The position numbers and the translations under genes are program-made. The notes below the pieces were generated by a model that saw only the letters and a program-made list of their open reading frames with translations, was not told where the DNA came from and searched no databases. A stretch of DNA of 64,000 nt from Escherichia coli (GTDB lineage: Bacteria; Pseudomonadota; Gammaproteobacteria; Enterobacterales; Enterobacteriaceae), in the NCBI GenBank assembly GCA_032372955.1, contig GCA_032372955.1_4725.1. One strand, written 5' to 3'. The stretch's first letter is position 1. Each line of letters starts with the position of its first letter. Below, in pieces: positions 26,273-48,097 of this stretch.

Positions 26273-29182
26273 TTAGACAATGTCACCTGAAGTATCGTCT
26301 TCTGACGTTGTGTCGGTCGTCGTATCCTCAGATGTGGTTGTTTCTTCTGTTGAGGTTTCCTCCATCGTTTCGGTATCGAAATCGGTATCTCCGAAATCGT
26401 CACCGCCACCGAAGTCATCAGAAGAACCGGTATCGCTACTTGAATCGGATGACCAAGAACCATCAGATGAAACGCTGCCGTCCTGTGCTTGAGCTCCCAT
26501 CTTCTCTTCAATCTTCTTCGTCAGATTCTGAATATACAATGCAAAATCACCCATGCATTTACCCATGACTTCAATATGTTCCATGGACATACGTTTCCAA
26601 TCTTGCACGGCATTCTTCTTATCGTCAAGACTGAAGAGATCAGCCAACTCCTGATTGAAGTTGTTCTCTTTTGCCCACGTACGCATTGCGGTACCAATAA
26701 TGCATGCGCGGATCATCTGCAGTGTTGTTTCATCAACACCGCCCAGACCCATGACGTAATCAGGTGTTAAATAATCATCAAGTTGCGCAGTAATCGCTTC
26801 CTTGTACTGATTATATTCACGTACCTGATCTTCAAGGCGACGAGCATTGCTATCCGGTAAATGCACACTCAGGCTGTTTAAGAACATGGATACATAAGCA
26901 TCGGCAATAACTTCCTGGACTTCTGGTTTAGTGTAATCCAGATCCATTGTTGCTGATTGGTCGTCAATCTCCTGATAAGCGTTAACGTTACGGATAACAC
27001 CGTTTTCGAAATCGCTACCAAAAAGCTGCTGCAATTGTGCCTGGGAGAGCTTAGACATGTTCGCACGAACCGTGTTTCGTAACGACGTCAACAACACGGG
27101 ACTGTATGCCGTGTATTTCTTGATGTGGTCCGATAACCCATTCGTGATCACCTCGCGACAAACCGTGAACTGTTTCTCTTGCATCGCGTTAGCTGTAATC
27201 ACAGAAGCTGCGAATTCAGATTGGTAGGAAGTATCGATAATCTCCGGAGAAACGCCCAAGCCCATGAAATGGTCACGACGGTAACGATCCATCAGCTCAT
27301 TATCAGGAGACTGATAGTTACGCTGCTCAACACTGACGTCTGTATTCAATTTTGGGAAGCGTGGGTTATTCCCCTCAACCTTCAATCGAATCGAGCTTCG
27401 TTCATACGCGTTGATGATATCCATCGGGTTAGTTTCACCCAACGGGAAACCAGACTGGTAGACACGAGCGAAACTATGCAGTGCTTGTTCGACGGTATCG
27501 ACCGGGTTTCTGTCGGTGTCTTCAAGCATTACGCTTAGCGTCGTATAGTTCAACGAACTTTTGATTTTTGCCATCAGTTCTTGAACCATGAGCATGGCTC
27601 GTTGCGACGAGATCATCTTCGTACTTTCAAGCAGCGAACGACCGATACCGTATTTGTTGTATTCATAGGCGATGTAAGTCACCATTTCACGAGGAATAAA
27701 CAAAACACGGGTCTGTTTATGGGCCAAGCTACGAGCAAGCATCGACAGATAAAACGATGATGTCGCACCGATCTCCACCGCACTGCCAAGATAACCGTTG
27801 ACAATACGTTCAACGATGTAGCGTTGCATCAGCGATTCGTACGATGATACGAAGGCCGACATGTCTACCTGATTACATGACGTACCTTGGATCATGTTCT
27901 TGGCTGCACCAATCATCTCGCTCGCCATGCCGTTGCTTGAAGTCCCTGCGATATCTGCAGTGATCTTCGACAACCGACCTTCCAACTGCTTGTAATACGC
28001 CGCATCTTCAACCAAACGTACTGGATAACCAAACTCATCCAACTGAACCAAATACCCGATATGGTTCTCCGGATCACCTGGTGCGTGTACGGGTTCTAAT
28101 GCCTCAGGTGGTACGTGCATCACACCAGGATGACCGACACTTTGACGATCGAGCGTATCTGGGGTTGCCAACGCGTAAACCGGCGATACCTTGGTGTGAC
28201 GCTGGATGTTGAGTTTATTCCAGATCTCGTTAACCTGTTCTTGCGTCAGCTCACGTCGGTTAGCGGTTAGGGTTGGGTCACCTGACAGTGTTACCAAACC
28301 ACTACCACCTAACGTGTTCGCACGTAACGCACGTTGTACCGCGGTCGCTGCTCGACGTTGATGTAGAATAGGCATGCGGAGGATGTCTGGGTTATCGACA
28401 ACCGTAACCATATCCGGAATATCGATCTTCGCTTCAATGAATTTACCGTCCTTATCACGAAGCAGGGTATTGGTAAACTTAATGCTGTCTATGCGAACAA
28501 CAGGATCGTACGGTATGGTTTCATTAACGCCTGAGAAATAATCTTCCATCGAAACCGTCGCAGGTAATTGATTTTCGTGGCGTTTGCGACTGTCGTTACC
28601 TAGAAGCCCCCAACTTGCAAAATGGTTGTCTTTAAATCCGTATTCTTCAAGTTTCAGTTGACCGTTACCATTAATGGCGCGGTCGAGCGTGCTTTCTGGC
28701 AGAACAACGAAGTTATAACTGCCCTTGATAAAGAAGACGTCTTCGATGATACGAGGGATAAGCGTCTTTATTTTATAGATATTCTTAAAATGCGTGTCGA
28801 TGGTATCGATCATCGGCTGAACGATTTCTGCGACTCTGCCGGGGAAATCTTCGCTGTCGATAAACATCTCGACCGTCTTAAGATCGTTAGGGTTCGTCAA
28901 CGCGGCAACATAGATCTGCATCACGCGTTTAAGTTCAGGGAACAACTCGAGGATGTTTTTATTATCCTCGATGTTTGTCGCGGTCGCACGCGTAACCGTG
29001 TTCATCGTCATTTGGTCGGGAACAACTAACCCGAAACGACCGCTCGCTCCTTCCGCATCACGTGTATTATAAAGACGTGACTGCGGAGCAGGAGCGACAA
29101 ATTTGTTCATGAGTGCCTTCGCAACGTCATTATTACTCATTTGACGTTCGAGGGCGACGCGCCCTTTATTTATATCGTTCAT
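26273..29182 (-). CDS. large hypothetical protein with acidic Ser/Thr/Asp-rich C-terminal tail (portal-like size; unverified)
   Basis: 969-aa ORF, AAGGAG RBS 9 nt upstream; C-terminal ~65 aa extremely acidic. Portal assignment is a size-based guess only. Confidence 0.6.
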   Translation of the reverse strand: MNDINKGRVALERQMSNNDVAKALMNKFVAPAPQSRLYNTRDAEGASGRFGLVVPDQMTMNTVTRATATNIEDNKNILELFPELKRVMQIYVAALTNPNDLKTVEMFIDSEDFPGRVAEIVQPMIDTIDTHFKNIYKIKTLIPRIIEDVFFIKGSYNFVVLPESTLDRAINGNGQLKLEEYGFKDNHFASWGLLGNDSRKRHENQLPATVSMEDYFSGVNETIPYDPVVRIDSIKFTNTLLRDKDGKFIEAKIDIPDMVTVVDNPDILRMPILHQRRAATAVQRALRANTLGGSGLVTLSGDPTLTANRRELTQEQVNEIWNKLNIQRHTKVSPVYALATPDTLDRQSVGHPGVMHVPPEALEPVHAPGDPENHIGYLVQLDEFGYPVRLVEDAAYYKQLEGRLSKITADIAGTSSNGMASEMIGAAKNMIQGTSCNQVDMSAFVSSYESLMQRYIVERIVNGYLGSAVEIGATSSFYLSMLARSLAHKQTRVLFIPREMVTYIAYEYNKYGIGRSLLESTKMISSQRAMLMVQELMAKIKSSLNYTTLSVMLEDTDRNPVDTVEQALHSFARVYQSGFPLGETNPMDIINAYERSSIRLKVEGNNPRFPKLNTDVSVEQRNYQSPDNELMDRYRRDHFMGLGVSPEIIDTSYQSEFAASVITANAMQEKQFTVCREVITNGLSDHIKKYTAYSPVLLTSLRNTVRANMSKLSQAQLQQLFGSDFENGVIRNVNAYQEIDDQSATMDLDYTKPEVQEVIADAYVSMFLNSLSVHLPDSNARRLEDQVREYNQYKEAITAQLDDYLTPDYVMGLGGVDETTLQMIRACIIGTAMRTWAKENNFNQELADLFSLDDKKNAVQDWKRMSMEHIEVMGKCMGDFALYIQNLTKKIEEKMGAQAQDGSVSSDGSWSSDSSSDTGSSDDFGGGDDFGDTDFDTETMEETSTEETTTSEDTTTDTTSEDDTSGDIV

Positions 29183-29209: not shown

Positions 29210-31621
29210 GTGTCCAACACTGACTATCAGCTTTATTCGGAAAGCGTGCAGCGTCTAACGGACACCCTGATTATTAAAAGCGACATCACGGCAGAACGGT
29301 TAAACCTCAAGGTTTCCGAAGTCTACCAGATGGCCGTCGGGGACGACCCACGCACGTGGTTATACTACATGAATCTCGCTGGCGAGTATCATCCTTGTCA
29401 GACAATGATGACCGTAAATTCCCTGGATACGCTCGAAGAGATCGAGTTCACCAAGGAAAACATGTTACGGCATCGCATGACAGCAAGGGAATACGCGTAT
29501 GGTGGAGATTATTTCAATCGTTTAATTGCGCGGTACCCGGAACAACGTATGTTGATCTTGGGTATCCTTAACCCCATCGATATCGAGAAAGCAATTGCGG
29601 CACGCAATCATGAGATTCTCTGGTACGATACACAAGAGGTTGAGTCGCGCGAGGCCAATCTTATTCCACGTTTACAGCAAGAAATCGACGATTACTTCAG
29701 ACGCTGGGAACATCCGGCATATGAGAGCGTCGATATGCTTCATTGGCCTGCGCTATACGCCATCCTATTCACACAAATACCTGAGATGATAAAAGGTATT
29801 CGTTGGGAAAACTGTCATACCCATTATGCCCATAGCTTCCATATCTGGAGTTATCTGGCAAGCCATCAAGGTCTTGATCGATTCAAGCGATACATGACCG
29901 AATCCCAAATGCTCTGGTTCTATCGTAACATCGCTTACATTGAAAGAAACATGGGCAGAACGGAAAACTACGATAAGCTCATTCAAAAGGTATTAACCGA
30001 TCGTGGGATTCCAATCGGTGCGTTCTCGATCAAACAAGACGCTTCCGAGATACCTCAGACGTTAAAACCCACAGTTTACATGGAGCGTAAACCGCTTAAC
30101 CTTCAAGAGATCGTCGGTAATGGCACGGTAAGACGTAAGGTCACTACCGTGATGCAACAACAGTTCCCTCTAGCGCGGGATAACGAAGCGGAGTATTATA
30201 CCGAGCTTAACCGCACGATAGAGAAGATGTCGATGCACGACAACAATACCTTAACGACCAAGGTGTTGGAAAGTGAAGCCGAAGACCTTACAGACAGTGA
30301 ACTGTATCCTAAGTATGATTTCCTACTGAACGAATGGATTCATCTTAGCGCGATAGGCATGTATCAGTCACGGTTGACAACAACCAACCCGGTGACGGGT
30401 GATACCATGACGATGTCGATGAAAGATGCATACAAGCTGTTCTTGTATTTGCTGAACTATTCGATGGGCATGACGCTGATTGAAGTACCTAAGATCCATG
30501 CTAACCACGTCAGGGTATTAACGCTACCGACATTCGACCATCTCCGTAGCATTACCGATCCTGCTATCATTCCCGATAAACTGATCTGGTGGTGTTTGGA
30601 TAAGCAAGTGACGCTGCGTGCGGTCGTCAGTACTGAAGAGTTTCTGAGCGCCGTTACCGAGATTTACCAGGGTTGGCGTCGCCATCAGTTCATGTATCAG
30701 CTCCAGGAACATTATCAAGCTCGAGGCATGGCTGAAGCAATCGTTGAAAACTTCTACATGGATGTTGGTGTCGACTTCGGTATTGGGCAGCTTTACAAGG
30801 AATGGTTCTTATCGATGGATTGGGAGCTTGACGCAATCAGTCAAGAAGAGGCGGGAATTCTGGCTCTCGATATCTTCACAAAGGCCACCGGTCAAGATTT
30901 GGAAGATGTCACCAGTCTTAAGGATATTCAATACGGAATGCTGCAGCTGCTTAAGACATTGAGCAGTTACACCATCCATTTTATCCAGACAATCAACAGC
31001 GATCCAATCAAACCGCTAAACAAAATTGCCATCCGTCTCGGCTCGAGTTTAGTAAGCGGTAGTGAAGAACTGTGGGAAGACTGGGCGCAAGCAAACGTTC
31101 ATGATACGGATAACCAGGCTACGGAAGTTATCAAATTCGTACATGATAACAACCCGATGACGAACTGGCGTGAATCGGCAGTTGAAAGTTTGGAAGCGCC
31201 TCCGAAACCAACCTGGTGTGATTGTAGTGGTTACGAGAACACCCAAACCGTTCGATTCAGTACGCAATATTGGGCACAAGTCATTAGCGATCCTGTCTCG
31301 TTGCGTTTCCGTAAAAATCCGCTCGACGGTTTGTGGCTTGCGCCGTTCCCAGGTCGGGCACCACGCGACCTTCGTGAACGTCTGCCGTCAGAGTCGTTGC
31401 GTGGGTTAACCGTAACCCCAATCAAACCGTTCGAACAACGTTTCCGTAAACGTGATCTTCGAGGTCTCTGGATAGAACCGATTTACAAACAGTTGAACGG
31501 TCGTTTCAGATCAGTGGCTCTAAGTGAGACGAATCATGTTGCGTATAAGCCTATCAGTATGCGTCTATCGAATCCGCTCAATCGTTTGATTGTTAAACCT
31601 TTGCCTATCGAGGACGTTTAA
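29210..31621 (+). CDS. hypothetical protein
   Basis: Start moved to GTG 29210 (GGAGGA RBS, 6-nt spacer); the track start at 29141 would overlap the divergent 969-aa gene. 803 aa, no NTPase motif seen. Confidence 0.55.
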   Translation: MSNTDYQLYSESVQRLTDTLIIKSDITAERLNLKVSEVYQMAVGDDPRTWLYYMNLAGEYHPCQTMMTVNSLDTLEEIEFTKENMLRHRMTAREYAYGGDYFNRLIARYPEQRMLILGILNPIDIEKAIAARNHEILWYDTQEVESREANLIPRLQQEIDDYFRRWEHPAYESVDMLHWPALYAILFTQIPEMIKGIRWENCHTHYAHSFHIWSYLASHQGLDRFKRYMTESQMLWFYRNIAYIERNMGRTENYDKLIQKVLTDRGIPIGAFSIKQDASEIPQTLKPTVYMERKPLNLQEIVGNGTVRRKVTTVMQQQFPLARDNEAEYYTELNRTIEKMSMHDNNTLTTKVLESEAEDLTDSELYPKYDFLLNEWIHLSAIGMYQSRLTTTNPVTGDTMTMSMKDAYKLFLYLLNYSMGMTLIEVPKIHANHVRVLTLPTFDHLRSITDPAIIPDKLIWWCLDKQVTLRAVVSTEEFLSAVTEIYQGWRRHQFMYQLQEHYQARGMAEAIVENFYMDVGVDFGIGQLYKEWFLSMDWELDAISQEEAGILALDIFTKATGQDLEDVTSLKDIQYGMLQLLKTLSSYTIHFIQTINSDPIKPLNKIAIRLGSSLVSGSEELWEDWAQANVHDTDNQATEVIKFVHDNNPMTNWRESAVESLEAPPKPTWCDCSGYENTQTVRFSTQYWAQVISDPVSLRFRKNPLDGLWLAPFPGRAPRDLRERLPSESLRGLTVTPIKPFEQRFRKRDLRGLWIEPIYKQLNGRFRSVALSETNHVAYKPISMRLSNPLNRLIVKPLPIEDV

Positions 31622-31680
31622 CGTGATAGCGCAGCAAATCGTAAAGTCTTTTTTATCTAATTCCCGGCGAGGAGGTCACC

Positions 31681-32616
31681 GTGAGTGATACGGTAACAAC
31701 TATTGACGACACCGAACTTTACCCGGTCGACGTCTCTTTACCCTCATCCGATCTCGTGTATGGTCTTATCAACCACGATAACCCACCTCAGAACGGAGAG
31801 CATGTTCTAACCCCTGAATTATTGGTTTTAGGAACACCAACCACCAACCAAAGCGCCTACGAGCGCGACACCCAGATTACGGCGACAGCAACCGCTAAGC
31901 TTACCGAGTTGGACGATTATGAAGGTTCGACGACGCTGTATTACGATCGTATTAACATCGGTGCGTATCTGCGTAACGTAGCGCCTATTCTTATCGATGC
32001 GCCAGACGCCGCCAAGATGCGTGATATCTGGCCTATCATCAAAGAACGTTTCGGTCTTGGCCTTACCGCGGAAGAAATCGTCAACGACGAACTTAACTGG
32101 GATACCGTTAACGGACAATTGCTTCGTGTCGCATCTAACTGCCTGGCTTGGACGGGGAGCGTTCGTATCTTGATGAAGTCGCGTGTACCGAATCTTGATG
32201 ATATTATCGCGATCAAGGAGCTGGACGGCCTTAAGTTCTTCGGTCAAGGCGTACGCGCTAGCGGCGAGATTTACAGTTACAGCCGTGATACTTCTGATTA
32301 CGGTGAACTGCTGGCTTCGCTGGTAACAGGTACCGTTATTAGCGATGTGGTGGTTGCCGATCTTCTGGCTGAAATGACTACCGATCGTTGGGTATTAGAC
32401 GACAACGCCGCACCGTATAACCTGTATAATGCTAAAGTGGCTTTCAACGGTGAGTTAGGCGGACGTATTCCAGCAAGAGCAGGTTACCAATACGGTATCG
32501 AGATCAGTCTGGATGAAAACTACTGTACTGCCGTTGGCGGTCCATTGATTTTCTATTACAATGTCGACGGACATACCGCAAGCCTCCAGGGTCGTTCTCC
32601 AGAAGAACAAGGCTAA
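31681..32616 (+). CDS. paralogue family protein (YYDRI / LAWTGSV motifs), member 1
   Basis: 311-aa ORF, GTG start with GAGGAGG RBS; motifs YYDRINIG, ERFGLGLT, LAWTGSV. Confidence 0.65.
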   Translation: MSDTVTTIDDTELYPVDVSLPSSDLVYGLINHDNPPQNGEHVLTPELLVLGTPTTNQSAYERDTQITATATAKLTELDDYEGSTTLYYDRINIGAYLRNVAPILIDAPDAAKMRDIWPIIKERFGLGLTAEEIVNDELNWDTVNGQLLRVASNCLAWTGSVRILMKSRVPNLDDIIAIKELDGLKFFGQGVRASGEIYSYSRDTSDYGELLASLVTGTVISDVVVADLLAEMTTDRWVLDDNAAPYNLYNAKVAFNGELGGRIPARAGYQYGIEISLDENYCTAVGGPLIFYYNVDGHTASLQGRSPEEQG

Positions 32617-32626
32617 GGAATAAACA

Positions 32627-33478
32627 ATGAGTCAGAAATTGTTAAACAAAAGTCCTAAAGTACTGGTCGCTGAACTTATTCAGGCAGCCAATCCTGACTT
32701 CGACTTTAACTTCGATGCAATTGATATCACGGATGTTGCTGAAAACGGAAACCACGCGTATAAACGGAACACGCGCGCTAAGGTATCGCCTTCGGCAACA
32801 GTAACACCAGCACAATACCGTGAAAGCAGCTACGTGTGGTACGATCGTATCCCTATCCAAGACTTCTTCTTGGGGATGGAACCGAAGCTTGCTATCGATG
32901 CCGGGGTTAAAACGACGCACGATCTTATCCCTCTGATTCAATCAACGTACGGAATCGTTATCGATCAGGATAGCTGCGTCGATTCTCCGATCGTACGAGG
33001 CGATGAATATCCGTTCCCGCACACCGTAGAATTGAAAACCACCGGATTGGCTTGGACGGGAAGTGTTACGTTCTATCTCCTCGATAGTGCCCACGATATT
33101 GCGGGGATGATGAAGACTTCGGTGATGACCGGTCTCAATTTCCCGTACTACACCGCAAATCGTATCCAGGCATTGGTCTACAGTTACGCCATAGACTGTA
33201 CAGCGATCCGTTCCGATCTCGCCGGATTAAAAGTTGGCGGTAACTTAAGCGCACTGGTTAGCTTATTCAACAACGTTGCGCCAACCCCGTGGGTTTATAA
33301 CGGCCGTGAAGACGAAAACAACCTTTACGGAGCCACCGTGCTTGCAACCGGTAAAACAACAGAACTTATCGCACAGGGTTATCCTGTTAACCCGGCGTTC
33401 GCTAACGCTGTCATCGTTACGCTTAGCCAAGATTACTGCACGAACTACGGCGGTATCCTGTTGATGCAATATAACTGA
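32627..33478 (+). CDS. paralogue family protein, member 2
   Basis: 283-aa ORF, AAGGAA RBS; motifs VWYDRIPI, STYGIVID, LAWTGSV. Confidence 0.65.
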   Translation: MSQKLLNKSPKVLVAELIQAANPDFDFNFDAIDITDVAENGNHAYKRNTRAKVSPSATVTPAQYRESSYVWYDRIPIQDFFLGMEPKLAIDAGVKTTHDLIPLIQSTYGIVIDQDSCVDSPIVRGDEYPFPHTVELKTTGLAWTGSVTFYLLDSAHDIAGMMKTSVMTGLNFPYYTANRIQALVYSYAIDCTAIRSDLAGLKVGGNLSALVSLFNNVAPTPWVYNGREDENNLYGATVLATGKTTELIAQGYPVNPAFANAVIVTLSQDYCTNYGGILLMQYN

Positions 33479-33494
33479 TTAAATAGGAAAAGAC

Positions 33495-34379
33495 ATGGCT
33501 TCTACACAAATCCGTGCTACCGATCGTATCGTCCGTACGATTATCGGCGGTCAAGTACAAACTAACCTTACGCTCGGTCTTCCTCATGCATGGGAAGAAC
33601 ACAGCACCTTGAATGAAAAGCTTCAGATTCAATCAAAGGTTTACCCCGAGGGTAATCCTGCTGTACGTTACTTCTGTATCGGCAACCAGGGTCACGAATT
33701 CATCCGCAACGCTAACGGTATCCCTTCCTCGATGCCGATCGCTCACGAAGCAAGCGATCTATCACCGTGGAAAATCAAACCTTTCGTAATGCGTGAAGTT
33801 GGTAACGACTTGACCACGGACGAACGCGCTAAATTTGGGTTACGTCGTATTGAGACACTGGAAAGCGGTAAAAAGTATATCTGTTATTACGGTCGTCGCA
33901 TCGATTTCGATAACGTTGTCCGCTCCATGCGTTATACCAAATACGTCGACGGTGTCGCTCAGACCATCGAATGGCATCCAACCGACGCGAACCTCAACCC
34001 CGCCCGACCAGATATTCCAACAACCGGAATTCTGGTAGCGACCGGGGAGTACTACGACTACAGCTGTAAAGTCTCTTTGGTTTGGACGCCATGGGATATT
34101 AACGAATATCTCAATGTGGCTAAACTCACCGAAGGTGGTGAAGAGTACGCGGTTATTTCTGAAATTGGGATGGTCTCTGCGGGCGATAAAATCGTTCGTG
34201 CTGATGATGGTCAAGGTTCGGCCTTCGACATGAACGAAATCGTCGGTGCGCAGGTTACCGATCTGATTTCGACTTACCACAACCTTTATACCACCAACGA
34301 TACGCTGACACTGAAATACGACCTTGGTGCGTTGGAAGCTCGTAAGGCAGGCCCGACGGGCGCAGAAATCCTACCGTAA
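33495..34379 (+). CDS. paralogue family protein, divergent member 3
   Basis: 294-aa ORF, AGGAAAA RBS; weaker motifs YYGRRIDF and LVWTPWD in the same order. Confidence 0.55.
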   Translation: MASTQIRATDRIVRTIIGGQVQTNLTLGLPHAWEEHSTLNEKLQIQSKVYPEGNPAVRYFCIGNQGHEFIRNANGIPSSMPIAHEASDLSPWKIKPFVMREVGNDLTTDERAKFGLRRIETLESGKKYICYYGRRIDFDNVVRSMRYTKYVDGVAQTIEWHPTDANLNPARPDIPTTGILVATGEYYDYSCKVSLVWTPWDINEYLNVAKLTEGGEEYAVISEIGMVSAGDKIVRADDGQGSAFDMNEIVGAQVTDLISTYHNLYTTNDTLTLKYDLGALEARKAGPTGAEILP

Positions 34380-34394
34380 CCTAAGGGGTGTTAA

Positions 34395-35300
34395 ATGGAG
34401 TACAGTGAAATCCTAGGGTTAGAATCGAAAGAAATCCTCTTTCGGCTGATTCGAAAGCATAGCGATTTCGATGCTCGAGGCGTAACGCTGGATAAACTGG
34501 TTATCGGTGAGGCTTCTGAAAGCACAGGGTACAAGCGTAACAGCAAGTTAACCGTGCATCCCCAGCCGGGTTCAGGGCTGGTGAACTCTGTCGACATCTA
34601 TTATAACCGCATCGATCTTGGTAAACTGGGTACTTGGCCTGGCGGACAGCACCACTGGCCCGTCGAGATCGAAACCTTAGATGCGCTAACCAAGGTCTCT
34701 GAGATCCTACCTGTCTTAGCATCGACGTACGGTATCCTTCTCAACAAAACCGAGATTGTCGACGCAGATCTGGATAAGTCCAAGTCACCGATACAGGTTG
34801 TGATAACACCTAAACCCGGTAACCAAGTATGGGTTGGTCAGTTACTTGTCGAGTTAACTTCAGGACATAATGACCTCAACAACCTCGTTCGCAACAATAT
34901 GTTGGCTGGGTTGAATTATATCATCGATCGAGATAGCAGTAAACTCCCGGGCGCTATTGTTTCGTACAACTGGTTCGTATCTGCTGGTGTTCTGGCGTCA
35001 CTTACCGATGGTTATACGTTAACCTCAGGTGATACGCAATCGGAGGCACTAATCGCAGAAATGAACATGCTGCAATTGGGTCTCTCTGAAGAGATCGACG
35101 GCCTTATGGTCAACGATCGCTGGGTATTGTCAGCAATACCTGGACCACTCAACTTGCAGAATGCGAGAGTAATAGCCGATCCAGAGCAATTCAAAACACT
35201 ACCGTTTGGCGTGCGTACGGATGTTAGTAAAGCCGTCGTACTTCAACTTAGTGTGATGAATACGCTCATCGATGGTTATCTAACGCTATATGTAGCATAA
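34395..35300 (+). CDS. paralogue family protein, member 4
   Basis: 301-aa ORF; motifs YYNRIDLG, STYGILLN, VWVGQL. Confidence 0.65.
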   Translation: MEYSEILGLESKEILFRLIRKHSDFDARGVTLDKLVIGEASESTGYKRNSKLTVHPQPGSGLVNSVDIYYNRIDLGKLGTWPGGQHHWPVEIETLDALTKVSEILPVLASTYGILLNKTEIVDADLDKSKSPIQVVITPKPGNQVWVGQLLVELTSGHNDLNNLVRNNMLAGLNYIIDRDSSKLPGAIVSYNWFVSAGVLASLTDGYTLTSGDTQSEALIAEMNMLQLGLSEEIDGLMVNDRWVLSAIPGPLNLQNARVIADPEQFKTLPFGVRTDVSKAVVLQLSVMNTLIDGYLTLYVA

Positions 35301-35308
35301 CAGCATAT

Positions 35309-35341
35309 CCCCTCCTCCTTCCCTGTTGGGTTGGAGGAGGG
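35309..35341. terminator. conserved hairpin element between convergent genes
   Basis: CCCCTCCTCC-TT-CCC-TGTT-GGG-TT-GGAGGAGGG followed by TTATG and T-rich sequence. Confidence 0.55.
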
Positions 35342-35351
35342 TTATGTTTGG

Positions 35352-36632
35352 TTATTTGTTTTTCTGACTGGAATCGATCAATTCGAGCTTGTGTACTGTC
35401 TGCAACGTCGCATGCGTTTCCAACCAGACCTGGTGAAGATAAGGCGTATCGTTAAGCCGCTTAACGCGCGTATGTTTGTACAACGTATTTTCAAACAACA
35501 TGTTCTTACGAAGTCCCCAGCGCGAGTGAAGTACCCATAACGGTTTTTCATAGGTCTGCACGTAAGCTGGTAACTCGCCGAGATCGGCTCGAATCAGTCC
35601 TTCCGGTTTCTTACCTAAGAAATACTGTCCTGGTACACCACTTCGTGGTAAAGGTTCTTGTGTAACCTGAATCGATGTTGCTTTGATGTACACCCAGAAA
35701 CTGCAAGGATGCGTCACCCACGCTTTCAATGCTTTATCAGACAATAAACGATTGGCAACAATGTCGGACTGTGGGTCTTCTTCGTTCAACAGAATACCAA
35801 GAGATGTTAGATCAAGGTATTTGCGGGAACGGAAGTATCTTTCATAGAGAAACATGTTAATGCAGTTTATTTTCGCTGTCGTGTCGCTAACGATCGTGTA
35901 ACAATCGTCAAGAAGATGTAAATATCCCCCGAACACCAGCGCGACGGTTTCATCTTCGGCGACCTTGCGCGGTAGCCGTAAATACATCTCGTCCTTATAC
36001 GGCAAGAGCTTCGTGGAATCAGCGATCATCTCTTCTGTGATAGCATGGATTTCCAAACTCCCGATACGGCTAAAATCAATCATACCGATATCGTTTTCTT
36101 GGCCACGCTGTGCTGTCTTGAACCCACCTTGGATATAGACACCAACGTCTTTACCGTAAACGTGAGGATGGACATAACCGCCTACGGTGAACAAGCAGTG
36201 TTTGCCGATATTTTCGTAATTCGTATTCGCTTTCGTCAACAGGATATCAGTGCGTTCCGACTCGGGAATCGCGTTGCTTGGATGATAGCCACTATTACCG
36301 ACTTTAGGGAGAAAGCCTACCGTAATAGCGTCATGACAATAAAGCTTGTGGGTTTTAATCGACAGCTCGCCAGGCTGTCCACGAAGGTTAGTATGCGCAT
36401 CCGATTTCGCTTTCAACCACGCATTGAGTGTATCACTGCTGTTTTGAAGCTCGGATTGAAATGTGTACAGATCAATAACTTGTTGCTGGTCAGCATAGCT
36501 TTCATGGACCTGGATCTTGAGTTTTTGATACGTTGAGAACAACGTACTCAGGACACTTTCACCCGCCTCAAGCGCTGTCCAGGCCGTGCCAGAACCCACG
36601 GGTAATCCGTAAGTTTTTACCAATGTATACAT
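35352..36632 (-). CDS. hypothetical protein (opposite-strand gene inside host-range module)
   Basis: 426-aa ORF, AAGGGGG RBS; divergent from the first tail-fibre gene. Confidence 0.65.
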   Translation of the reverse strand: MYTLVKTYGLPVGSGTAWTALEAGESVLSTLFSTYQKLKIQVHESYADQQQVIDLYTFQSELQNSSDTLNAWLKAKSDAHTNLRGQPGELSIKTHKLYCHDAITVGFLPKVGNSGYHPSNAIPESERTDILLTKANTNYENIGKHCLFTVGGYVHPHVYGKDVGVYIQGGFKTAQRGQENDIGMIDFSRIGSLEIHAITEEMIADSTKLLPYKDEMYLRLPRKVAEDETVALVFGGYLHLLDDCYTIVSDTTAKINCINMFLYERYFRSRKYLDLTSLGILLNEEDPQSDIVANRLLSDKALKAWVTHPCSFWVYIKATSIQVTQEPLPRSGVPGQYFLGKKPEGLIRADLGELPAYVQTYEKPLWVLHSRWGLRKNMLFENTLYKHTRVKRLNDTPYLHQVWLETHATLQTVHKLELIDSSQKNK

Positions 36633-36736: not shown

Positions 36737-38890
36737 ATGACAGATGAAATTAAACGCCTTCCGTATAACCCGCAGGGGAATTTGGATGGCGCATGGGTTC
36801 CAGAAGAACCCGTCACTGTCCGTCCTTCCACGGGGACCGGATTTAACTTTCTCGTTCCTAAATACGCGCCATATTTTCGTAATGGGTTAAAGATCTACAA
36901 CCCTGAAACAAACGCGTATCTGGAAGAAGGCGTTGACTTTTTATGCACTCACCCCTTCCGTGCCATGGCTGCGCTGACCGGCCTGGAATTATACGGTTCC
37001 ATCATGCTGTTGGACACCGCATTCAGTGGACAGTTGCAACTGAACTACTATTCACTGGGGGGTGAGTTTACACTTGATCAACAACAAATTCTTAACGTTT
37101 TAGCCAACAACCTCTACGACCCCCGCGTTACGTTCTGGGAAAAGGTTGCTGACGTTCCTTCCGTATTCCCGCCAATCAACCACCAACATAATGTCGAAAC
37201 CGACACAATGACGTGGGACGATGTGGTGGCGGCAATCGAATCATTGAAAGAACCGCTTGAAGAAGGGTTCAATAAAGCAATGACCGCATTGCTGCAGCAC
37301 GAGAATCGTCGCGATAACCCCCATGGCGTAACCAAGGCTCAAGTTGGATTGGGGAATGTTCAGAACTTCACAACGGCGACCGAGAGCGATCTGGAAACCA
37401 TCGGTGAAAATCTGTACATGACGTTGGCGATGACGCGTAAGATGATCGCTAACCTGAGTGGTGATAGTGCTGCTGCACACATCAGCAACTACAACAACCC
37501 ACACAAGGTAACTAAAGCCCAGGTGGGACTCGGAAACGTTGAGAACTACGGTACAGCCGATAGTAATGCAACCATTACCGGTACGGCCACAAATCTGTAC
37601 ACAACACCAGCGGGTGTACGTGCGGCAATCAAGGCGATCACGGACGGCTTAAGTACGCGCATCGATCATGTCAACGCTGCGTTAACAACCCATACCGGGG
37701 ATAATAACAACCCTCACGCTGTTACGAAAGCACAGGTAGGACTGGGGGACGTACAGAACTACGGTGTGGCGTCTAATGGGGAAGCCGGTGCAGGTGTTGC
37801 TAACAACAAATACATGACGCCCGCAACCACAGCAGCCGCCATCGCAGCGTTAATCACCCCAACCGTAACCGAACATATCGGTAACACCAACAACCCACAT
37901 GGGGTGACCAAAGCCCAAGTCGGTCTGGGAAGCGTGCAGAACTTTGGGGTTGCTACTACCCAAGAAGCTATCGACGGTCAGGCTAACAACAAGTACATGA
38001 CACCAATACTTGTTCGTTACGCGATCGAGCAAATGGCTGGTCAAGGGTTCAGTAGTCACATCGCAAATACCGAGAACCCGCACCAAGTATCTAAAGCACA
38101 GGTAGGGTTGGGGAGTGTTGAAAACTATCCTGTCGCTTCTGATGTGGAAGCACAAACAGGTGTAGCGACCAACCGCTATATGACACCGGCTGCGACAAAA
38201 GCGGCAATCATCGCTTTAGCGGGTGATGGTTTTGCGGCACACGTTGTCGATAAGAGCAACCCGCATGAAGTAACAAAATCTCAAGTTGGGTTAGGGAACG
38301 TACAGGACTTTGCTGTCGCCACCGACACGCAAGCTGCCGACAAGACTAACCAGACGACGTACATGACACCGTACTCGACTTACAAGTCAATTGCGGCGTT
38401 TGCGGCGTTAGCCGATCATACGCACACAGCCGAACAAGTCGGTGCGCTCCCCATCAATGGGGGTAAGTTAACCGGACCAATCGATCTTTCAGCAACGTCT
38501 ATCACGGGTACCGGACTCGGTATCGATGGTGCTAATGGTTCAATCAACGTCAATAAGTTGACCATCAACCAGCTTCTGGAAGCTTACGGTGGCATTGAAT
38601 CCAGTGATACGATTAAAATCCTGAACGACGATGAGACGCCCGCTAACTTCCTTGCCGATGGCGATCTCGAAGGGATCAAATGGGTTAACATCAACAGCCA
38701 AGAACCTGGAGAGAACCAAGACGGCGAGAAGATGCAGAAGATCGGTAAGCTGAGCGATTACCTTAAGAACGATTATTTAACCAGCTTGAAGACGAACACA
38801 GCGTTCCGTGATGTCTTCCAAGCACTGCTTAGGGAATTCCTTGCTAACTTCAACGCGGTTATCAAAGCAACCGACTTCGAGACGTTATAA
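36737..38890 (+). CDS. tail fibre protein with T4-type repeats
   Basis: 717-aa ORF, AAAGGG RBS; six copies of NPHxVTKAQVGLGNVxNY spaced ~60 aa apart. Confidence 0.8.
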   Translation: MTDEIKRLPYNPQGNLDGAWVPEEPVTVRPSTGTGFNFLVPKYAPYFRNGLKIYNPETNAYLEEGVDFLCTHPFRAMAALTGLELYGSIMLLDTAFSGQLQLNYYSLGGEFTLDQQQILNVLANNLYDPRVTFWEKVADVPSVFPPINHQHNVETDTMTWDDVVAAIESLKEPLEEGFNKAMTALLQHENRRDNPHGVTKAQVGLGNVQNFTTATESDLETIGENLYMTLAMTRKMIANLSGDSAAAHISNYNNPHKVTKAQVGLGNVENYGTADSNATITGTATNLYTTPAGVRAAIKAITDGLSTRIDHVNAALTTHTGDNNNPHAVTKAQVGLGDVQNYGVASNGEAGAGVANNKYMTPATTAAAIAALITPTVTEHIGNTNNPHGVTKAQVGLGSVQNFGVATTQEAIDGQANNKYMTPILVRYAIEQMAGQGFSSHIANTENPHQVSKAQVGLGSVENYPVASDVEAQTGVATNRYMTPAATKAAIIALAGDGFAAHVVDKSNPHEVTKSQVGLGNVQDFAVATDTQAADKTNQTTYMTPYSTYKSIAAFAALADHTHTAEQVGALPINGGKLTGPIDLSATSITGTGLGIDGANGSINVNKLTINQLLEAYGGIESSDTIKILNDDETPANFLADGDLEGIKWVNINSQEPGENQDGEKMQKIGKLSDYLKNDYLTSLKTNTAFRDVFQALLREFLANFNAVIKATDFETL

Positions 38891-38932: not shown

Positions 38933-38947
38933 CGATAGGATGTGAAA

Positions 38948-39457
38948 ATGGGCACAAAAATGAGTGAATTGGGTGCTCGCATGACGGCATGGTACGCAAG
39001 GAAGGATAACCCTAACCAAGTCACCGCAGCACAAATCGACGCACCCGATAAAAACACGATCGATACGAGAATCGGCAAAAAGCTCCCTAAGGGGATACTC
39101 CCCGTAGCGTATTTCGGTGATTGTACTGATATCCGTAGCGAACGCATCAGCAACGTTACCGCCAGCGGTACGGTAATCTCGTATCCTGAAATACCCGTCA
39201 TGATCGCCGGTACCGACTATATTCTGGCGAAGGGAACGCTAGACATCAAAAAACTTACTTCCGACTGGGCGAACAAAACCGGTTATCTTTTCATTCGTCA
39301 GAAAGACGGATCGATCGATTGGATCTGGCAGAGTAGTGCTGGGGTCGATACGTCAACAGCAATTCGCGTCGGGCAGGTGAGCTGTAACGCAACAGGAATC
39401 ACTTCGGTGGTCTTTAACAAAGTCTTCATCCTCGGCCAAAAACGTTACATGGGGTAA
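38948..39457 (+). CDS. tail-fibre-associated protein
   Basis: Start chosen at ATG 38948 (AGGA RBS); N-terminal NPNQVTAAQIDAPDK resembles the fibre repeat. Confidence 0.5.
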   Translation: MGTKMSELGARMTAWYARKDNPNQVTAAQIDAPDKNTIDTRIGKKLPKGILPVAYFGDCTDIRSERISNVTASGTVISYPEIPVMIAGTDYILAKGTLDIKKLTSDWANKTGYLFIRQKDGSIDWIWQSSAGVDTSTAIRVGQVSCNATGITSVVFNKVFILGQKRYMG

Positions 39458-39461
39458 CCGC

Positions 39462-39947
39462 ATGAAGCTATCAACACTGCTTTCTGAATGGGGGACGTAT
39501 CTTACCCAAAAGAACCCTCACGAGGTAACGCCAACACAAACAGATGTCTACGTTAAGACCGAAGTGGCTTCTAAACTTGCACCGCTTGTTACCCAGTGTT
39601 ACCTTCCCTTTCTTTTTTTCAGTCGCGATCGTATCGTACCGTCTGGTTCTTACAACAACGGAAGAATAAGTTTGTCGGAAGGTGTTGCCGAATACAATAC
39701 CAAAGAGGGTGTTGTTCCTGCAACGACGTTGGATGTGTCTGGTGTAAGTGAATCTGTTGGCTGGGTTTATCTTGCTGTCACCGATAGCGGTTTCGCCTAT
39801 ACGTTAACGGATAGCAACAGTAGTTACAAAAACGTGATGCGTATCGGGACATGGAACAAAGTTCAGGGTACCGTGCACCTCGCGGCAACACGTAAGATCG
39901 GCACCGTTGAAATCGACGACGGACAGCTTCCTGACTCGCCTATTTAA
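39462..39947 (+). CDS. tail-fibre-associated protein
   Basis: 161-aa ORF; N-terminal KNPHEVTPTQTDV motif; follows previous gene by 4 nt. Confidence 0.5.
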   Translation: MKLSTLLSEWGTYLTQKNPHEVTPTQTDVYVKTEVASKLAPLVTQCYLPFLFFSRDRIVPSGSYNNGRISLSEGVAEYNTKEGVVPATTLDVSGVSESVGWVYLAVTDSGFAYTLTDSNSSYKNVMRIGTWNKVQGTVHLAATRKIGTVEIDDGQLPDSPI

Positions 39948-45682: not shown

Positions 45683-46225
45683 TTAGCCAACAACGCTAAC
45701 GGTCGGTTTCACGAAGCCATCAGCTACGTTATCCGCCAGAACGGTTGCCAGGTCATCTTTCGGTGCAGCTGCGTAGGTCAGTGCAACCTGCAGAGTGCCG
45801 GTATATACCAGGCCATTCTCGATCGCATTCAGAGTTACCTGACCAACAGTACCTGCAGACAGCTGGAAGGTTTCTTCATTGATTTCACCGGTCAGGGAAG
45901 CCAGACCGAATTTGGTGACCAGCTTGCTTACCAGCTCGGAAGCCTTAATGCTGTCGGTACCGTGCGGCAGTTCGAAAGTAACATCGCCAGTTACATCAGC
46001 GAAAACTTCGGACAGAGCCAGACGATCGTAGTAGAACTGCTGAGTACCCTGCAGGTTAGCTGCTTCAGCTGCAGCATCCAGCTGAATAACGGTGTTCTTT
46101 TCATGTTCGGAAGACGTCTGCGGAGTACCGAACTGCAGTTCTTCTTCGGTCAGCGTGCGGGTTGCTTTGGTGTTGATAAGATCAAGCAGAAGGGATTTCG
46201 CTGCTTTGTTAAAGTCTAAGGCCAT
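45683..46225 (-). CDS. abundant small protein, short member of the YYDR/LxYTG paralogue family
   Basis: Start chosen at internal ATG (MALDFNK) with GAGGACA RBS; high-expression codon usage like the capsid gene; motifs FYYDRLAL, TKFGLASLT, LVYTGTLQV. Confidence 0.65.
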   Translation of the reverse strand: MALDFNKAAKSLLLDLINTKATRTLTEEELQFGTPQTSSEHEKNTVIQLDAAAEAANLQGTQQFYYDRLALSEVFADVTGDVTFELPHGTDSIKASELVSKLVTKFGLASLTGEINEETFQLSAGTVGQVTLNAIENGLVYTGTLQVALTYAAAPKDDLATVLADNVADGFVKPTVSVVG

Positions 46226-46366
46226 GATAATGTGTCCTCTGATTTTTGATGGTCGAAAAGGAGATTCGGAGTCGTTCTCCATAATATTTACATTAATATA
46301 AAATATATTAATTTCTGTAAACACTTACATCTTTTGAGAGTGATGTAACAACCATAGAGGTAGAAA

Positions 46367-47260
46367 ATGGCAACTCAAGTTTCGCTTACTTTAAAAACAC
46401 CTTGGCAACTTATCGTTGATGAGATTAACAAACTCAACGCCGACACTGGTGCCAGCTTCCAATACACCGACCTTAAATACGTTCTTAAAGAAAAGAATCC
46501 TTCTGCTCCAGAAGCAACTTTAACGCTTAGCCCTGGTGATGGTACCCCTTACTTCAATAACCGTGATGTTACCTACCATCGTCTGGATCTGGCTAAATGG
46601 TTCCAGAAAATCGCTGTACGTGTTAACGTTACTGCTGACACCACCATCGGTGATGTGGTTGACCTTGTAGCTCAACGCTACGGTATGATCACACCGACCG
46701 GTGAGAAGTTCCTGGATAAAGATAAAGACATCAAAGCCGATACGTTATCTAATCCGGTTACCTTCAACGAGCATGGTATCCAGACGATCACCCTGGAAGC
46801 TAAAGAAGATTCGTTGGCGTGGTACGGCTCTGTTCAAGTTAAAGTTTATAACACCACGCTGGATCTGGCTAACATCATCAAGGTTACCAATCTGGGTAAC
46901 TTAACCTACGTTGATGAAGGCGACGGCACCAAAACGTCAGCACGTCTGTTAACCTATCCGTTAGACTTCAGTACTTACACCGCAGGTTTACAAGCTATTA
47001 CCAGCAACGATACCAAGATCGATGCAGGCTTAGCAGGTAACCTGACTACCCTGATCAAAGAGCAGACTGGTGTAAGTGATGATATCATCAATGAACTGAA
47101 AACCAATCTGCAAACAGCTACCTTTGTCTATAACGGTGCTACCACCGGGTCTACTGACAAAGGTGTTAACGCTACGTACAGCAATGTGCTGGTGCTGTCG
47201 TTAGCTGACGGTACTCACACCTACGGTAAAGCAGTATTCGGTTATAACGTTTCCGAATAA
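46367..47260 (+). CDS. paralogue family protein, member 5
   Basis: 297-aa ORF, AGAGG RBS; motifs VTYHRLDLA, QRYGMITP, LAWYGSVQV; divergent from the 45683 gene. Confidence 0.65.
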   Translation: MATQVSLTLKTPWQLIVDEINKLNADTGASFQYTDLKYVLKEKNPSAPEATLTLSPGDGTPYFNNRDVTYHRLDLAKWFQKIAVRVNVTADTTIGDVVDLVAQRYGMITPTGEKFLDKDKDIKADTLSNPVTFNEHGIQTITLEAKEDSLAWYGSVQVKVYNTTLDLANIIKVTNLGNLTYVDEGDGTKTSARLLTYPLDFSTYTAGLQAITSNDTKIDAGLAGNLTTLIKEQTGVSDDIINELKTNLQTATFVYNGATTGSTDKGVNATYSNVLVLSLADGTHTYGKAVFGYNVSE

Positions 47261-47276
47261 TTTTAATTAATCTCTC

Positions 47277-47308
47277 CCTTCCTCCTTCCCTGTTGGGTTG
47301 GAGGAAGG
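47277..47308 (+). terminator. conserved hairpin element followed by TTTATG
   Basis: CCTTCCTCC-TT-CCC-TGTT-GGG-TT-GGAGGAAGG. Confidence 0.55.
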
Positions 47309-48097
47309 TTTATGTTTGTGATTATTCTTCTCTTTTATAATTTCTAATGATAAGATTAAGTACCTGGAGTAAAAGTTTACAGATGTTGTAAATGTATTTG
47401 GAAAGTAAAATTTCCACGACCTCGGCCCCTTCGGGGGACGGGGGAGGAGCGAAGTCCTTTAGAGACGAGCAACAGGATAACTCTAAGAAAAAGAAAAACT
47501 AAACGAGCGAAGCGAGTTTATGTTTTTATCCTTAGAGTTATCAAGCTATAAGCGTAGCGTTAGCGTATAACGGTTATGTCGTATACGAATGCAATGAGTA
47601 TAGACGAGATACTCTGATGAACAACGTGAAGAAGAGTATCACAAATGTTTTTTGAGTTATCCGGATTTAACTAGCATGTAACGAAGTGTAATGCACAGAT
47701 GACATGTGTTACCGTTAAGGTAGTAAACACATGTTATCCATTGTTTTGAAGATAAGCTTATTAACTTACTTTTAAATCAATTTAAATATACAAACAACTT
47801 AAACATACCAAGATAAAACAATTGAACCTAAGATAAACAAGATAACTTAGACAATACACTTTTAACGAATACAGATAACATCTTACTTAAATCAAAATAC
47901 CTATCCTCGTTTACCTTCCTTGCTTGCAACACCTCTTCTAAATCCATCCCTTCTTAAGAAACAACAAAACCCTTACTGTAACACAAATCCTTTCACGACT
48001 ATATTACCTAAGTGATGCGTACGTACGATGTTCGTATTGCGTCAAATAGAACTCAATACGTTGTTTAATTAACGTGAAAAACAGAGGAACTTTTTAA
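47309..48097. other. 789-bp AT-rich non-coding region with inverted and direct repeats
   Basis: No ORF of 60 aa or more; 12-bp inverted repeat 47476-47487 / 47531-47542; five AGATAA copies 47750-47880; direct repeat CTTACTT(TT)AAATCAA at 47765 and 47882. Confidence 0.6.
48000..48015 (+). promoter_or_regulatory. conserved promoter-like motif TATATTACCTAAGTGA (copy C)
   Basis: Preceded by TTTCACGAC as in copy D; ~80 nt upstream of the 48098 gene cluster. Confidence 0.45.

What the first reader, a model, noticed from the sequence alone, without database searches (positions are those of the whole stretch)
31681..35300. Six-member paralogue family of ~300-aa proteins flanking the tail-fibre module
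Four tandem genes (31681, 32627, 33495, 34395) and a divergent pair beside the endolysin (45683 on -, 46367 on +) share ordered motifs: Y-Y/W-D/N-R-I/L, (S/R/K)(T/F)(Y/F)G(I/L/M), and LAWTGSV / LAWYGSV / LVYTGTL / LVWTPWD. Their position bracketing the fibre genes suggests receptor-binding accessory or decoration proteins that diversified by duplication. No function could be assigned from sequence.
Basis: seen in the sequence. Interest (0 to 1): 0.6.

Follow-up and report, generated by a model that had tools for sequence, protein, structure and literature searches.

The report
Known jumbo-phage DUF7941 filament protein paralogues
Five of the six flagged genes are true paralogues of a virion protein family (DUF7941) already described in phage Goslar and its relatives, and the sixth is an unrelated baseplate spoke protein, so the finding is real but already known.

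Summary
The window is a close relative (96% nt) of the E. coli jumbo phage Goslar (Chimalliviridae).

**Family membership**
- Five of the six flagged genes are real paralogues: 31681, 32627, 34395, 45683(-) and 46367. They are 22-27% identical, with BLASTP E 1e-7 to 1e-17.
- All five match Pfam DUF7941, at E 1e-21 to 1e-64.
- The gene at 33495 is not a member. It is DUF7208, the baseplate "spoke" protein (Goslar gp32 / phiKZ gp139). Its look-alike motifs are out of order.

**Structure**
- AlphaFold2 models of two members show an N-terminal domain, a low-confidence linker and a C-terminal domain.
- No Ig-like or fibre-adaptor fold was found.

**Prior description**
- The family was named "paralog family B" in Salmonella phage SPN3US in 2017.
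- A 2026 Goslar preprint describes it as head-to-tail filament formers proposed to make a baseplate-anchored host-capture "fibre cloud".

**What I add**
- The "disordered" linker is the most conserved segment, which fits a docking motif.
- The two abundant members evolve faster than their neighbours (dN/dS 0.25-0.32 against 0.11 or less).
- The SPN3US tailless-mutant data place the family in the head. The preprint does not address this conflict.

Novelty: already known. Interest is low to moderate.

The parts
31681..32616 (+). Paralogue A, 311 aa, orthologue of Goslar gp34. Full-length DUF7941 (N-terminal domain, linker, C-terminal domain). GTG start preceded by a GAGGAGG ribosome-binding site.
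32627..33478 (+). Paralogue B, 283 aa, orthologue of Goslar gp33. Full-length DUF7941.
   Evidence: Pfam DUF7941 at 163 bits. BLASTP to A at 5e-17. 97.9% identity to Goslar gp33. About 112 copies per Goslar virion.
33495..34379 (+). Not a family member. Baseplate spoke protein (Goslar gp32 / phiKZ gp139, DUF7208) embedded in the DUF7941 gene cluster.
   Evidence: Pfam DUF7208 at 323 bits. 34% identity to phiKZ gp139, E 4e-51. PDB 11lx/11pb/36za E 2.8e-201 and 9xpg/9xqd. hhalign against the DUF7941 profile gives probability 0.9%. Forms the spoke filament of five dimers.
34395..35300 (+). Paralogue D, 301 aa, orthologue of Goslar gp31. Full-length DUF7941, the lowest-copy member.
   Evidence: Pfam DUF7941 at 188 bits. 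98.0% identity to Goslar gp31. About 8.5 copies per Goslar virion.
35309..35341 (.). GC-rich hairpin (CCCCTCCTCC...GGAGGAGGG) between convergent genes D and the gp30 homologue. Probable bidirectional terminator closing the A-D cluster.
   Evidence: Sequence read. Annotated as a terminator in the Goslar record.
45683..46225 (-). Paralogue E, 180 aa from the ATG, orthologue of Goslar gp23. Short form: DUF7941 N-terminal domain plus linker, no C-terminal domain. The most abundant member.
   Evidence: Pfam DUF7941 at 77 bits, covering profile positions 4-174 of 276. 91.1% identity to Goslar gp23. dN/dS 0.32. About 2,144 copies per Goslar virion. Sits beside the endolysin gene, as phiKZ gp143 does.
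46367..47260 (+). Paralogue F, 297 aa, orthologue of Goslar gp22. Full-length DUF7941. Purified Goslar gp22 forms filaments in vitro.
29210..31621 (+). Context: homologue of Goslar gp35 / phiKZ gp128, the baseplate wedge protein that contacts the innermost spoke dimer. Lies immediately upstream of the A-D cluster.
   Evidence: BLASTP to phiKZ gp128 at 4.5e-116. Role described.
35352..36632 (-). Context: homologue of Goslar gp30 / phiKZ gp130, a component of the peripheral-baseplate star lobe.
   Evidence: BLASTP to phiKZ gp130 at 2.3e-24. phiKZ star-lobe composition.

Best explanation
The window encodes five paralogous DUF7941 virion proteins of a Goslar-like chimallivirus. The same family is SPN3US "paralog family B".

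**Proposed mechanism.** Each protein is a polymerisation module. It has a globular N-terminal domain, then a strongly conserved linker that is unstructured on its own, and in the long forms a variable C-terminal domain. The linker (plus C-terminal domain) of one subunit docks onto the N-terminal domain of the next. This gives head-to-tail, flexible homo- or hetero-polymeric filaments.

**Proposed division of labour.**
- The three low-copy members (31681, 32627, 34395) are co-encoded and probably co-transcribed with the spoke protein (33495) and the wedge and star-lobe proteins. They are most likely the baseplate-proximal members that join the filaments to the outer end of the six spokes, as phiKZ gp127 does.
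- The divergent pair next to the endolysin (45683-, 46367+) supplies the high-copy bulk subunits.
- The filaments are proposed to enlarge the capture radius of the virion and to carry host-binding domains found on other paralogues.

**What is shown and what is inferred.**
- Shown here: homology, domain layout, fold match to gp127, linker conservation and synteny.
- Taken from the literature on the 91-98% identical Goslar orthologues: virion copy numbers and in-vitro filaments of gp22.
- Inferred: the anchoring role of the tandem trio, and the host-capture function.
For: **Family membership**
- Pfam DUF7941 at 77-216 bits for all five.
- Mutual BLASTP E 1e-7 to 5e-17.
- The family is large: 2,241 cluster representatives at E<=1e-3. 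Long (about 275-300 aa), short (about 176-190 aa) and multi-domain forms all occur.

**Fold**
- AF2 models of A and F both show N-terminal domain, low-confidence linker and C-terminal domain.
- A sequence profile also finds PHIKZ127 in PDB 9xqd at E 3.5e-17.

**Location**
- In phiKZ the gp139 spoke band "terminates at gp127", with one gp127 per star lobe.
- In the window, the spoke gene lies inside the DUF7941 cluster, next to homologues of phiKZ gp128 and gp130.

**Polymerisation**
- The preprint reports AF3 head-to-tail dimers and negative-stain filaments of purified gp22.
- Independently, the linker is as conserved as the domain cores across 113 diverse family members (1.4-1.9 bits per column).
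- The linker is the most conserved segment among 57 gp22 orthologue clusters: entropy 0.14, against 0.37 for the N-terminal domain core and 0.61 for the C-terminal domain.
- None of the 25 substitutions between F and Goslar gp22 falls in residues 59-209.

**Division of labour**
- Goslar copy numbers are gp31 8.5, gp34 27, gp33 112, gp22 577 and gp23 2,144.

**Exposure**
- E and F have dN/dS 0.25-0.32. The eleven other genes compared, tail-fibre genes included, have 0.01-0.11 at similar dS.
Against: - No filaments have been seen attached to virions. The Goslar peripheral-baseplate map shows no DUF7941 density.
- The SPN3US studies detect all roughly 20 family members in purified tailless particles and classify them as head proteins. 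The preprint does not mention SPN3US.
- The virion preparations used for copy numbers also contained chimallin and PhuZ. Self-assembled filaments could therefore simply co-purify.
- phiKZ gp127 is most similar to F and B, and only weakly (2e-8 and 4e-6). No one-to-one orthology singles out a member of the tandem trio as the spoke cap.
- I could not run multimer predictions.
Confidence: 0.6

Rival explanations
1. The DUF7941 proteins, at least the abundant ones (E and F), are head-associated. They would be packaged inside the capsid as ejection or inner-body-like proteins, or bound to the capsid or collar, rather than anchored at the baseplate.
For: - SPN3US paralog family B is DUF7941 (Pfam on SPN3US gp138-145). 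A's best SPN3US match is gp141.
- All family B members were found in tailless-mutant particles and are counted among the 55 head proteins.
- gp141 and gp160 are estimated at more than 300 copies per capsid.
- Copy numbers of about 600-2,100 in Goslar are in the range of internal head proteins such as gp58.
- PHROG labels the family "head and packaging".
Against: - phiKZ gp127 is modelled in cryo-EM density at the outer baseplate.
- The phiKZ GenBank notes mark gp127 and gp143 "structural protein", unlike the many entries marked "structural head protein".
- The Goslar capsid maps did not reveal these proteins.
- No prohead-protease processing is reported for family B, unlike the known ejection proteins.
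- Purified gp22 self-assembles into filaments that would co-sediment with any particle preparation.
Confidence: 0.2
2. The proteins are ordinary fixed-stoichiometry building blocks of the peripheral baseplate, such as caps or connectors of the spokes like phiKZ gp127-gp126. They would not form micron-long filaments on the virion. The very high apparent copy numbers of gp22 and gp23 would reflect free polymers that co-purify.
For: - Only one gp127 per star lobe is seen in phiKZ.
- phiKZ has just three family members.
- The low copy numbers of the tandem trio (about 8, 27 and 112) fit multiples of six.
- The preparations demonstrably carry non-virion assemblies.
- The filament cloud has never been imaged on particles.
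Against: - The linker is conserved in all long and short forms, and gp22 forms filaments in vitro. These show that polymerisation is an intrinsic, selected property.
- The family has expanded to 10-21 members, some fused to carbohydrate-binding or LRR domains. This is hard to reconcile with a simple cap.
- E and F evolve faster than their neighbours.
Confidence: 0.15
3. One reading: six paralogous receptor-binding accessory or decoration proteins with Ig-like or fibre-adaptor folds.
For: The genes bracket the tail-fibre genes. Five share ordered motifs.
Against: - The sixth gene is unrelated (DUF7208 spoke).
- No binding domain is detectable in these five.
Confidence: 0.05

Closest known systems
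Goslar DUF7941 proteins gp22, gp23, gp31, gp33, gp34 (Basu et al., bioRxiv 10.64898/2026.04.21.720040)
   Same: They are direct orthologues: 91-98% aa identity, the same gene order and the same lengths. They share the Pfam family and the predicted layout of N-terminal domain, linker and C-terminal domain.
   Different: The only differences are strain-level substitutions. These are concentrated in E and F: 16 of 180 and 25 of 297 residues, dN/dS 0.25-0.32.
phiKZ gp127 (PDB 9xqd chain 0), with gp126 and gp143
   Different: Identity is only 19-24%. phiKZ has 3 members, against 5 in this window and 10 in Goslar. In phiKZ the genes lie downstream of gp128 on the opposite strand and are not interleaved with the spoke gene.
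SPN3US "paralog family B" (gp83, gp138-154, gp161, gp237; Ali et al. 2017, PMC5694885)
   Same: It is the same Pfam family. It has the same pattern of one abundant long member (gp141, 32.6 kDa) and one abundant short member (gp160, 18.5 kDa), plus many low-copy members.
   Different: SPN3US has 20-21 members, mostly in one long tandem array. They were assigned to the head from tailless-mutant proteomics, which conflicts with the baseplate model.
Goslar gp32 / phiKZ gp139 spoke protein (DUF7208), for ORF 33495 only
   Same: 99.3% identity to Goslar gp32 and 34% to phiKZ gp139. Solved structures 11lx and 9xpg.
   Different: It is not related to DUF7941 (hhalign probability 0.9%).

Membership tests
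DUF7941 (Pfam PF25613) | Whole-protein score above the Pfam gathering cutoff (27 bits) | tested here: met
   A 216, B 163, D 188, E 77 (N-terminal 174 of 276 profile positions) and F 173 bits. ORF 33495 gives no DUF7941 hit, so the feature is not met for that ORF.
DUF7941 (Pfam PF25613) | N-terminal domain fold as in the only solved member, phiKZ gp127 (9xqd chain 0) | tested here: met
DUF7941 (Pfam PF25613) | Layout of globular N-terminal domain, flexible linker and globular C-terminal domain (short forms lack the C-terminal domain) | tested here: met
   AF2 models: A has its linker at 169-199 with pLDDT<50. F has a pLDDT dip around residues 165-190, below 50 at 178-184. The alignment shows that E ends after the linker.
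DUF7941 (Pfam PF25613) | Encoded by phiKZ-like nucleus-forming jumbo phages (Chimalliviridae) | tested here: met
   The window is 96.4% identical to Goslar. tblastn hits in 125 phage records are Erwinia, Salmonella, Serratia, Klebsiella and other phages; the listed records are 210-322 kb.
DUF7941 (Pfam PF25613) | Physical presence in purified virions | not testable with these tools
   Reported for the Goslar orthologues by LFQ mass spectrometry and for SPN3US family B.
DUF7941 (Pfam PF25613) | Head-to-tail polymerisation through the linker docking on the next N-terminal domain | not testable with these tools
   Only single-chain prediction was available. Indirect support: the linker is the most conserved segment. 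The literature reports AF3 dimers and gp22 filaments.
SPN3US paralog family B | Homology to SPN3US gp138-154 | tested here: met
   A's best SPN3US match is gp141. SPN3US gp138-145 all score as DUF7941, E 2e-31 to 6e-87.
DUF7208 / phiKZ gp139-type baseplate spoke (ORF 33495 only) | Sequence match to the solved spoke proteins and to the Pfam model | tested here: met
   Pfam at 323 bits. PDB 11lx E 2.8e-201 and 9xpg E 3e-42. 34% identity to gp139 over 272 residues.

The most novel reading that the evidence does not exclude
The five paralogues may form a graded, possibly branched assembly.
- The three low-copy members encoded with the spoke gene would nucleate heteropolymer filaments at the six spoke tips.
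- The fast-evolving gp22 and gp23 orthologues would extend these filaments to micron length.
- The result would be a new kind of phage host-capture organelle whose exposed surfaces are under host-driven selection.

The roughly 4-fold steps in Goslar copy number (8.5, 27, 112, 577, 2,144) and the substitution pattern are compatible with this, but they do not show it. The core idea, the filament cloud, is already published as a proposal. Only the hierarchy and the selection pattern would be new.
Probability: 0.2. Interest if true: 0.55.

Novelty: already known. Interest (0 to 1): 0.25.

Why it matters
For genome annotation, these genes should be labelled DUF7941 virion (filament-forming) proteins. 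The gene at 33495 should be labelled the baseplate spoke protein.

Biologically, the family is one of the largest lineage-specific expansions in nucleus-forming jumbo phages. It may explain how these large, slowly diffusing virions find hosts.

The open point that matters is where the bulk of these proteins sits. The baseplate-filament model (Goslar, phiKZ) and the head assignment (SPN3US tailless mutants) have not been reconciled. The conserved linker motif offers a precise handle for mutagenesis.

Tried and rejected
- **Single-sequence search of A against the PDB** found nothing useful (cadherin, E 0.35). Only the five-sequence profile found phiKZ gp127.
- **ORF 33495 as a very divergent member** was tested and rejected: profile hmmsearch, hhalign and motif order.
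- **More family members in the window**: none found among 303 six-frame ORFs.
- **One-to-one orthology between phiKZ gp127 and one of the tandem trio**: not found. gp127 is closest to F and B, and only weakly. gp126 scores only 0.017 against the profile, and gp143 gives no hit at all even at E<=10.
- **Promoter and terminator consensus scan** of 29-48 kb: promoter-like sites are below the shuffle expectation and therefore uninformative for this phage.
- **Rfam scan of 44.5-48.5 kb**: nothing significant.
- **Word-indexed protein search**: returned mostly close gp22 orthologues. Family breadth came from the exhaustive representative search.
- **Multimer prediction** was not possible with the single-chain tool.
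Full report
**Origin of the window.** The region 31000-36000 is 96.4% identical at nucleotide level to Escherichia phage vB_EcoM_Goslar, a 237-kb nucleus-forming jumbo phage (Chimalliviridae). It lies in reverse orientation relative to the reference record. Gene order and gene lengths match the Goslar annotation one to one. The flagged ORFs correspond to these Goslar genes:

| ORF | Window coordinates | Goslar orthologue |
|---|---|---|
| A | 31681-32616 | gp34 |
| B | 32627-33478 | gp33 |
| C | 33495-34379 | gp32 |
| D | 34395-35300 | gp31 |
| E | 45683-46225, minus strand | gp23 |
| F | 46367-47260 | gp22 |

For E, the mechanical ORF list gives a 213-aa GTG ORF. The Goslar annotation, and the 19.1-kDa mass used in the Goslar proteomics, correspond to the 180-aa ATG form. 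A starts at a GTG preceded by GAGGAGG.

**Check of the observation.**
- All-against-all BLASTP, with E-values scaled to a database of 1e6 residues, links A, B, D, E and F at E 1e-7 to 5e-17 and 22-27% identity. C hits none of them.
- The independent Pfam model DUF7941 (PF25613) scores A, B, D and F over their full length at 163-216 bits. It scores E over its N-terminal 174 profile positions at 77 bits. The cutoff is 27 bits.
- C is instead DUF7208, at 323 bits. PHROGs agree: 1037/2935 for the five, 3315 for C.
- A profile built from the five finds no other ORF among all 303 six-frame ORFs of at least 60 aa, and does not find C even at E<=10. hhalign of C against the profile gives a probability of 0.9%.
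In C the FGL (residue 114) precedes YYGRR (131), so the resemblance is by chance.
- Across 113 diverse family members these three motifs are the most conserved blocks of the N-terminal domain.

**What ORF C is.**
- C is 99.3% identical to Goslar gp32 and 34% identical to phiKZ gp139 (E 4e-51).
- It matches solved chains 11lx/11pb/36za (E 2.8e-201) and 9xpg/9xqd.
- In both phages this protein forms the "spoke", a band of five dimers linking the inner baseplate to the peripheral baseplate.

**Structure of the family members.**
- The AlphaFold2 model of A has mean pLDDT 74.7. It shows a confident N-terminal domain (about residues 10-165), a linker with pLDDT<50 (169-199) and a C-terminal domain (200-295).
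- The model of F has mean pLDDT 86.9 and the same layout, with the pLDDT dip around residues 165-190, below 50 at 178-184.
- The sequence profile also finds PHIKZ127, at E 3.5e-17.
- There is no Ig-like or known fibre-adaptor fold.

**Context and synteny.**
- The A-D cluster has 10-16 nt intergenic gaps and a strong hairpin after D. It lies between homologues of phiKZ gp128 (the wedge protein that contacts the innermost spoke dimer; window 29210-31621) and phiKZ gp130 (a star-lobe protein; window 35352-36632, minus strand). A gp129 homologue lies further upstream.
- E and F sit beside the endolysin gene, as the short phiKZ member gp143 sits beside endolysin gp144.
- The cluster is therefore part of the peripheral-baseplate gene module.
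- In the phiKZ atlas, the gp139 band "terminates at gp127", with one gp127 per star lobe (PMC13250141).

**What is already published.**
- *SPN3US, 2017.* The family was catalogued as "paralog family B" (20-21 members). One long member (gp141) and one short member (gp160) are abundant, and the rest are low-copy (PMC5694885). I confirmed that SPN3US gp138-145 are DUF7941 and that A's best SPN3US match is gp141.
- *Goslar preprint, 2026* (bioRxiv 10.64898/2026.04.21.720040).
  - It names ten Goslar DUF7941 proteins: gp22, 23, 31, 33, 34, 86, 91, 92, 93 and 161.
  - It reports about 577 copies of gp22 and about 2,144 of gp23 per virion.
  - It predicts head-to-tail docking of the linker and C-terminal domain on the next N-terminal domain.
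  - It shows filaments of purified gp22 by negative stain.
  - It proposes a baseplate-anchored "fibre cloud" for host recognition.
  - Its Table S4 gives about 112 (gp33), 27 (gp34) and 8.5 (gp31) copies for the tandem members.
- The finding is therefore already known.

**Additional analysis done here.**
1. *Family size.* An exhaustive profile search finds 2,241 cluster representatives at E<=1e-3 and 837 at E<=1e-10. Long, short and multi-domain architectures all occur.
2. *Linker conservation.*
   - The linker that AlphaFold2 leaves unstructured is as conserved as the domain cores across the family: 1.4-1.9 bits per column, consensus L-x8-L-x-G-L-x-Y-P...K..A..YSY.
   - It is the most conserved segment among 57 clusters of gp22 orthologues. 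Mean entropy is 0.14, against 0.37 for the N-terminal domain core, 0.56 for the first 58 residues and 0.61 for the C-terminal domain.
   - A conserved segment that is disordered in isolation is what a fold-on-binding docking motif looks like. This is independent support for the head-to-tail model.
3. *Evolutionary rate.*
   - Compared with Goslar, E and F have dN/dS of 0.32 and 0.25 at ordinary dS (0.16-0.18).
   - A, B, C, D, the baseplate neighbours and even the tail-fibre genes have 0.01-0.11.
   - None of the 25 substitutions in F falls in residues 59-209.
   - The abundant subunits thus keep an invariant polymerisation core and vary on the rest of their surface. That is compatible with exposure to host-driven selection or with relaxed constraint.

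**Unresolved conflict.**
- The SPN3US studies found all family-B proteins in purified tailless particles and count them as head proteins.
- The Goslar preprint does not cite SPN3US, saw no DUF7941 density in its own baseplate map, and notes that its preparations also contained chimallin and PhuZ assemblies.
- Because gp22 self-assembles, free filaments could co-purify with any particle preparation. That would explain both data sets without deciding where the bulk protein sits.
- The only direct structural localisation is phiKZ gp127 at the spoke tip.
- I therefore rate the polymerising-module mechanism as likely. Baseplate anchoring of the low-copy tandem trio is plausible from synteny and stoichiometry. 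The micron-scale cloud is unproven.

**Verdict.** This is a real paralogue family with five members in the window, not six. It is already in Pfam, already described in SPN3US, phiKZ and Goslar itself, and already has a published mechanism proposal. Novelty: already known. Interest 0.25, mainly for the unresolved localisation question and the linker-motif handle.

Noticed in passing
window 47261-48097: An 840-nt AT-rich stretch (the 46001-48000 block has GC 0.41, against about 0.48 for its neighbours) lies downstream of F. It has no ORF longer than 39 aa and no Rfam match. The equivalent gap is also unannotated in the Goslar record.
   Followed up: partly
window 36737-38890 and 42577-44625 (also the N-termini of 38942-39457, 39462-39947 and 39960-42563): The two large tail-fibre proteins carry five to six copies of a repeat, NPH-x-VTKAQVGLGNV-x-N[YF]-x(10-20)-YMTP. 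The three ORFs between them each begin with a single degenerate copy (for example NPNQVTAAQ and NPHEVTPTQ). This suggests a shared attachment or assembly motif.
   Followed up: no
window 45683-47260: E and F are 91% identical to their Goslar orthologues with dN/dS 0.25-0.32, while flanking structural genes are 98-99.8% identical with dN/dS of 0.11 or less. The substitutions in F avoid residues 59-209 completely.
   Followed up: yes
window 39462-39947 and 48098-48880: The gp27 homologue (82.6% aa identity to Goslar) and the gp21 homologue (86.9%) are the most divergent genes in the compared 33-kb stretch. They are possible host-range or accessory hot spots.
   Followed up: no
window 26273-29182 (minus strand): The 969-aa homologue of phiKZ gp129 ends in a roughly 80-residue low-complexity tail rich in S, T, D and E.
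   Followed up: no
proteins P0008, P0015, P0020, P0037, P0041, P0046: Many gp22 orthologues come from assemblies labelled Salmonella enterica, E. coli or Shigella flexneri, on contigs of 236-249 kb. Whole Goslar-like phage genomes are therefore present in bacterial isolate assemblies, either as a carrier state or as contamination.
   Followed up: no
Goslar Table S4, applying to window genes D, A, B, F and E: The estimated copies per virion of the five orthologues rise in steps of about 3-5 fold: 8.5, 27, 112, 577 and 2,144. This may be coincidence, or a hint of a hierarchical or branched assembly.
   Followed up: no
L003 14820-15263 (phiKZ gp126): phiKZ gp126 aligns only to the N-terminal domain and stops before the conserved linker. 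It could accept a linker but could not donate one, so it is a candidate chain terminator.
   Followed up: no
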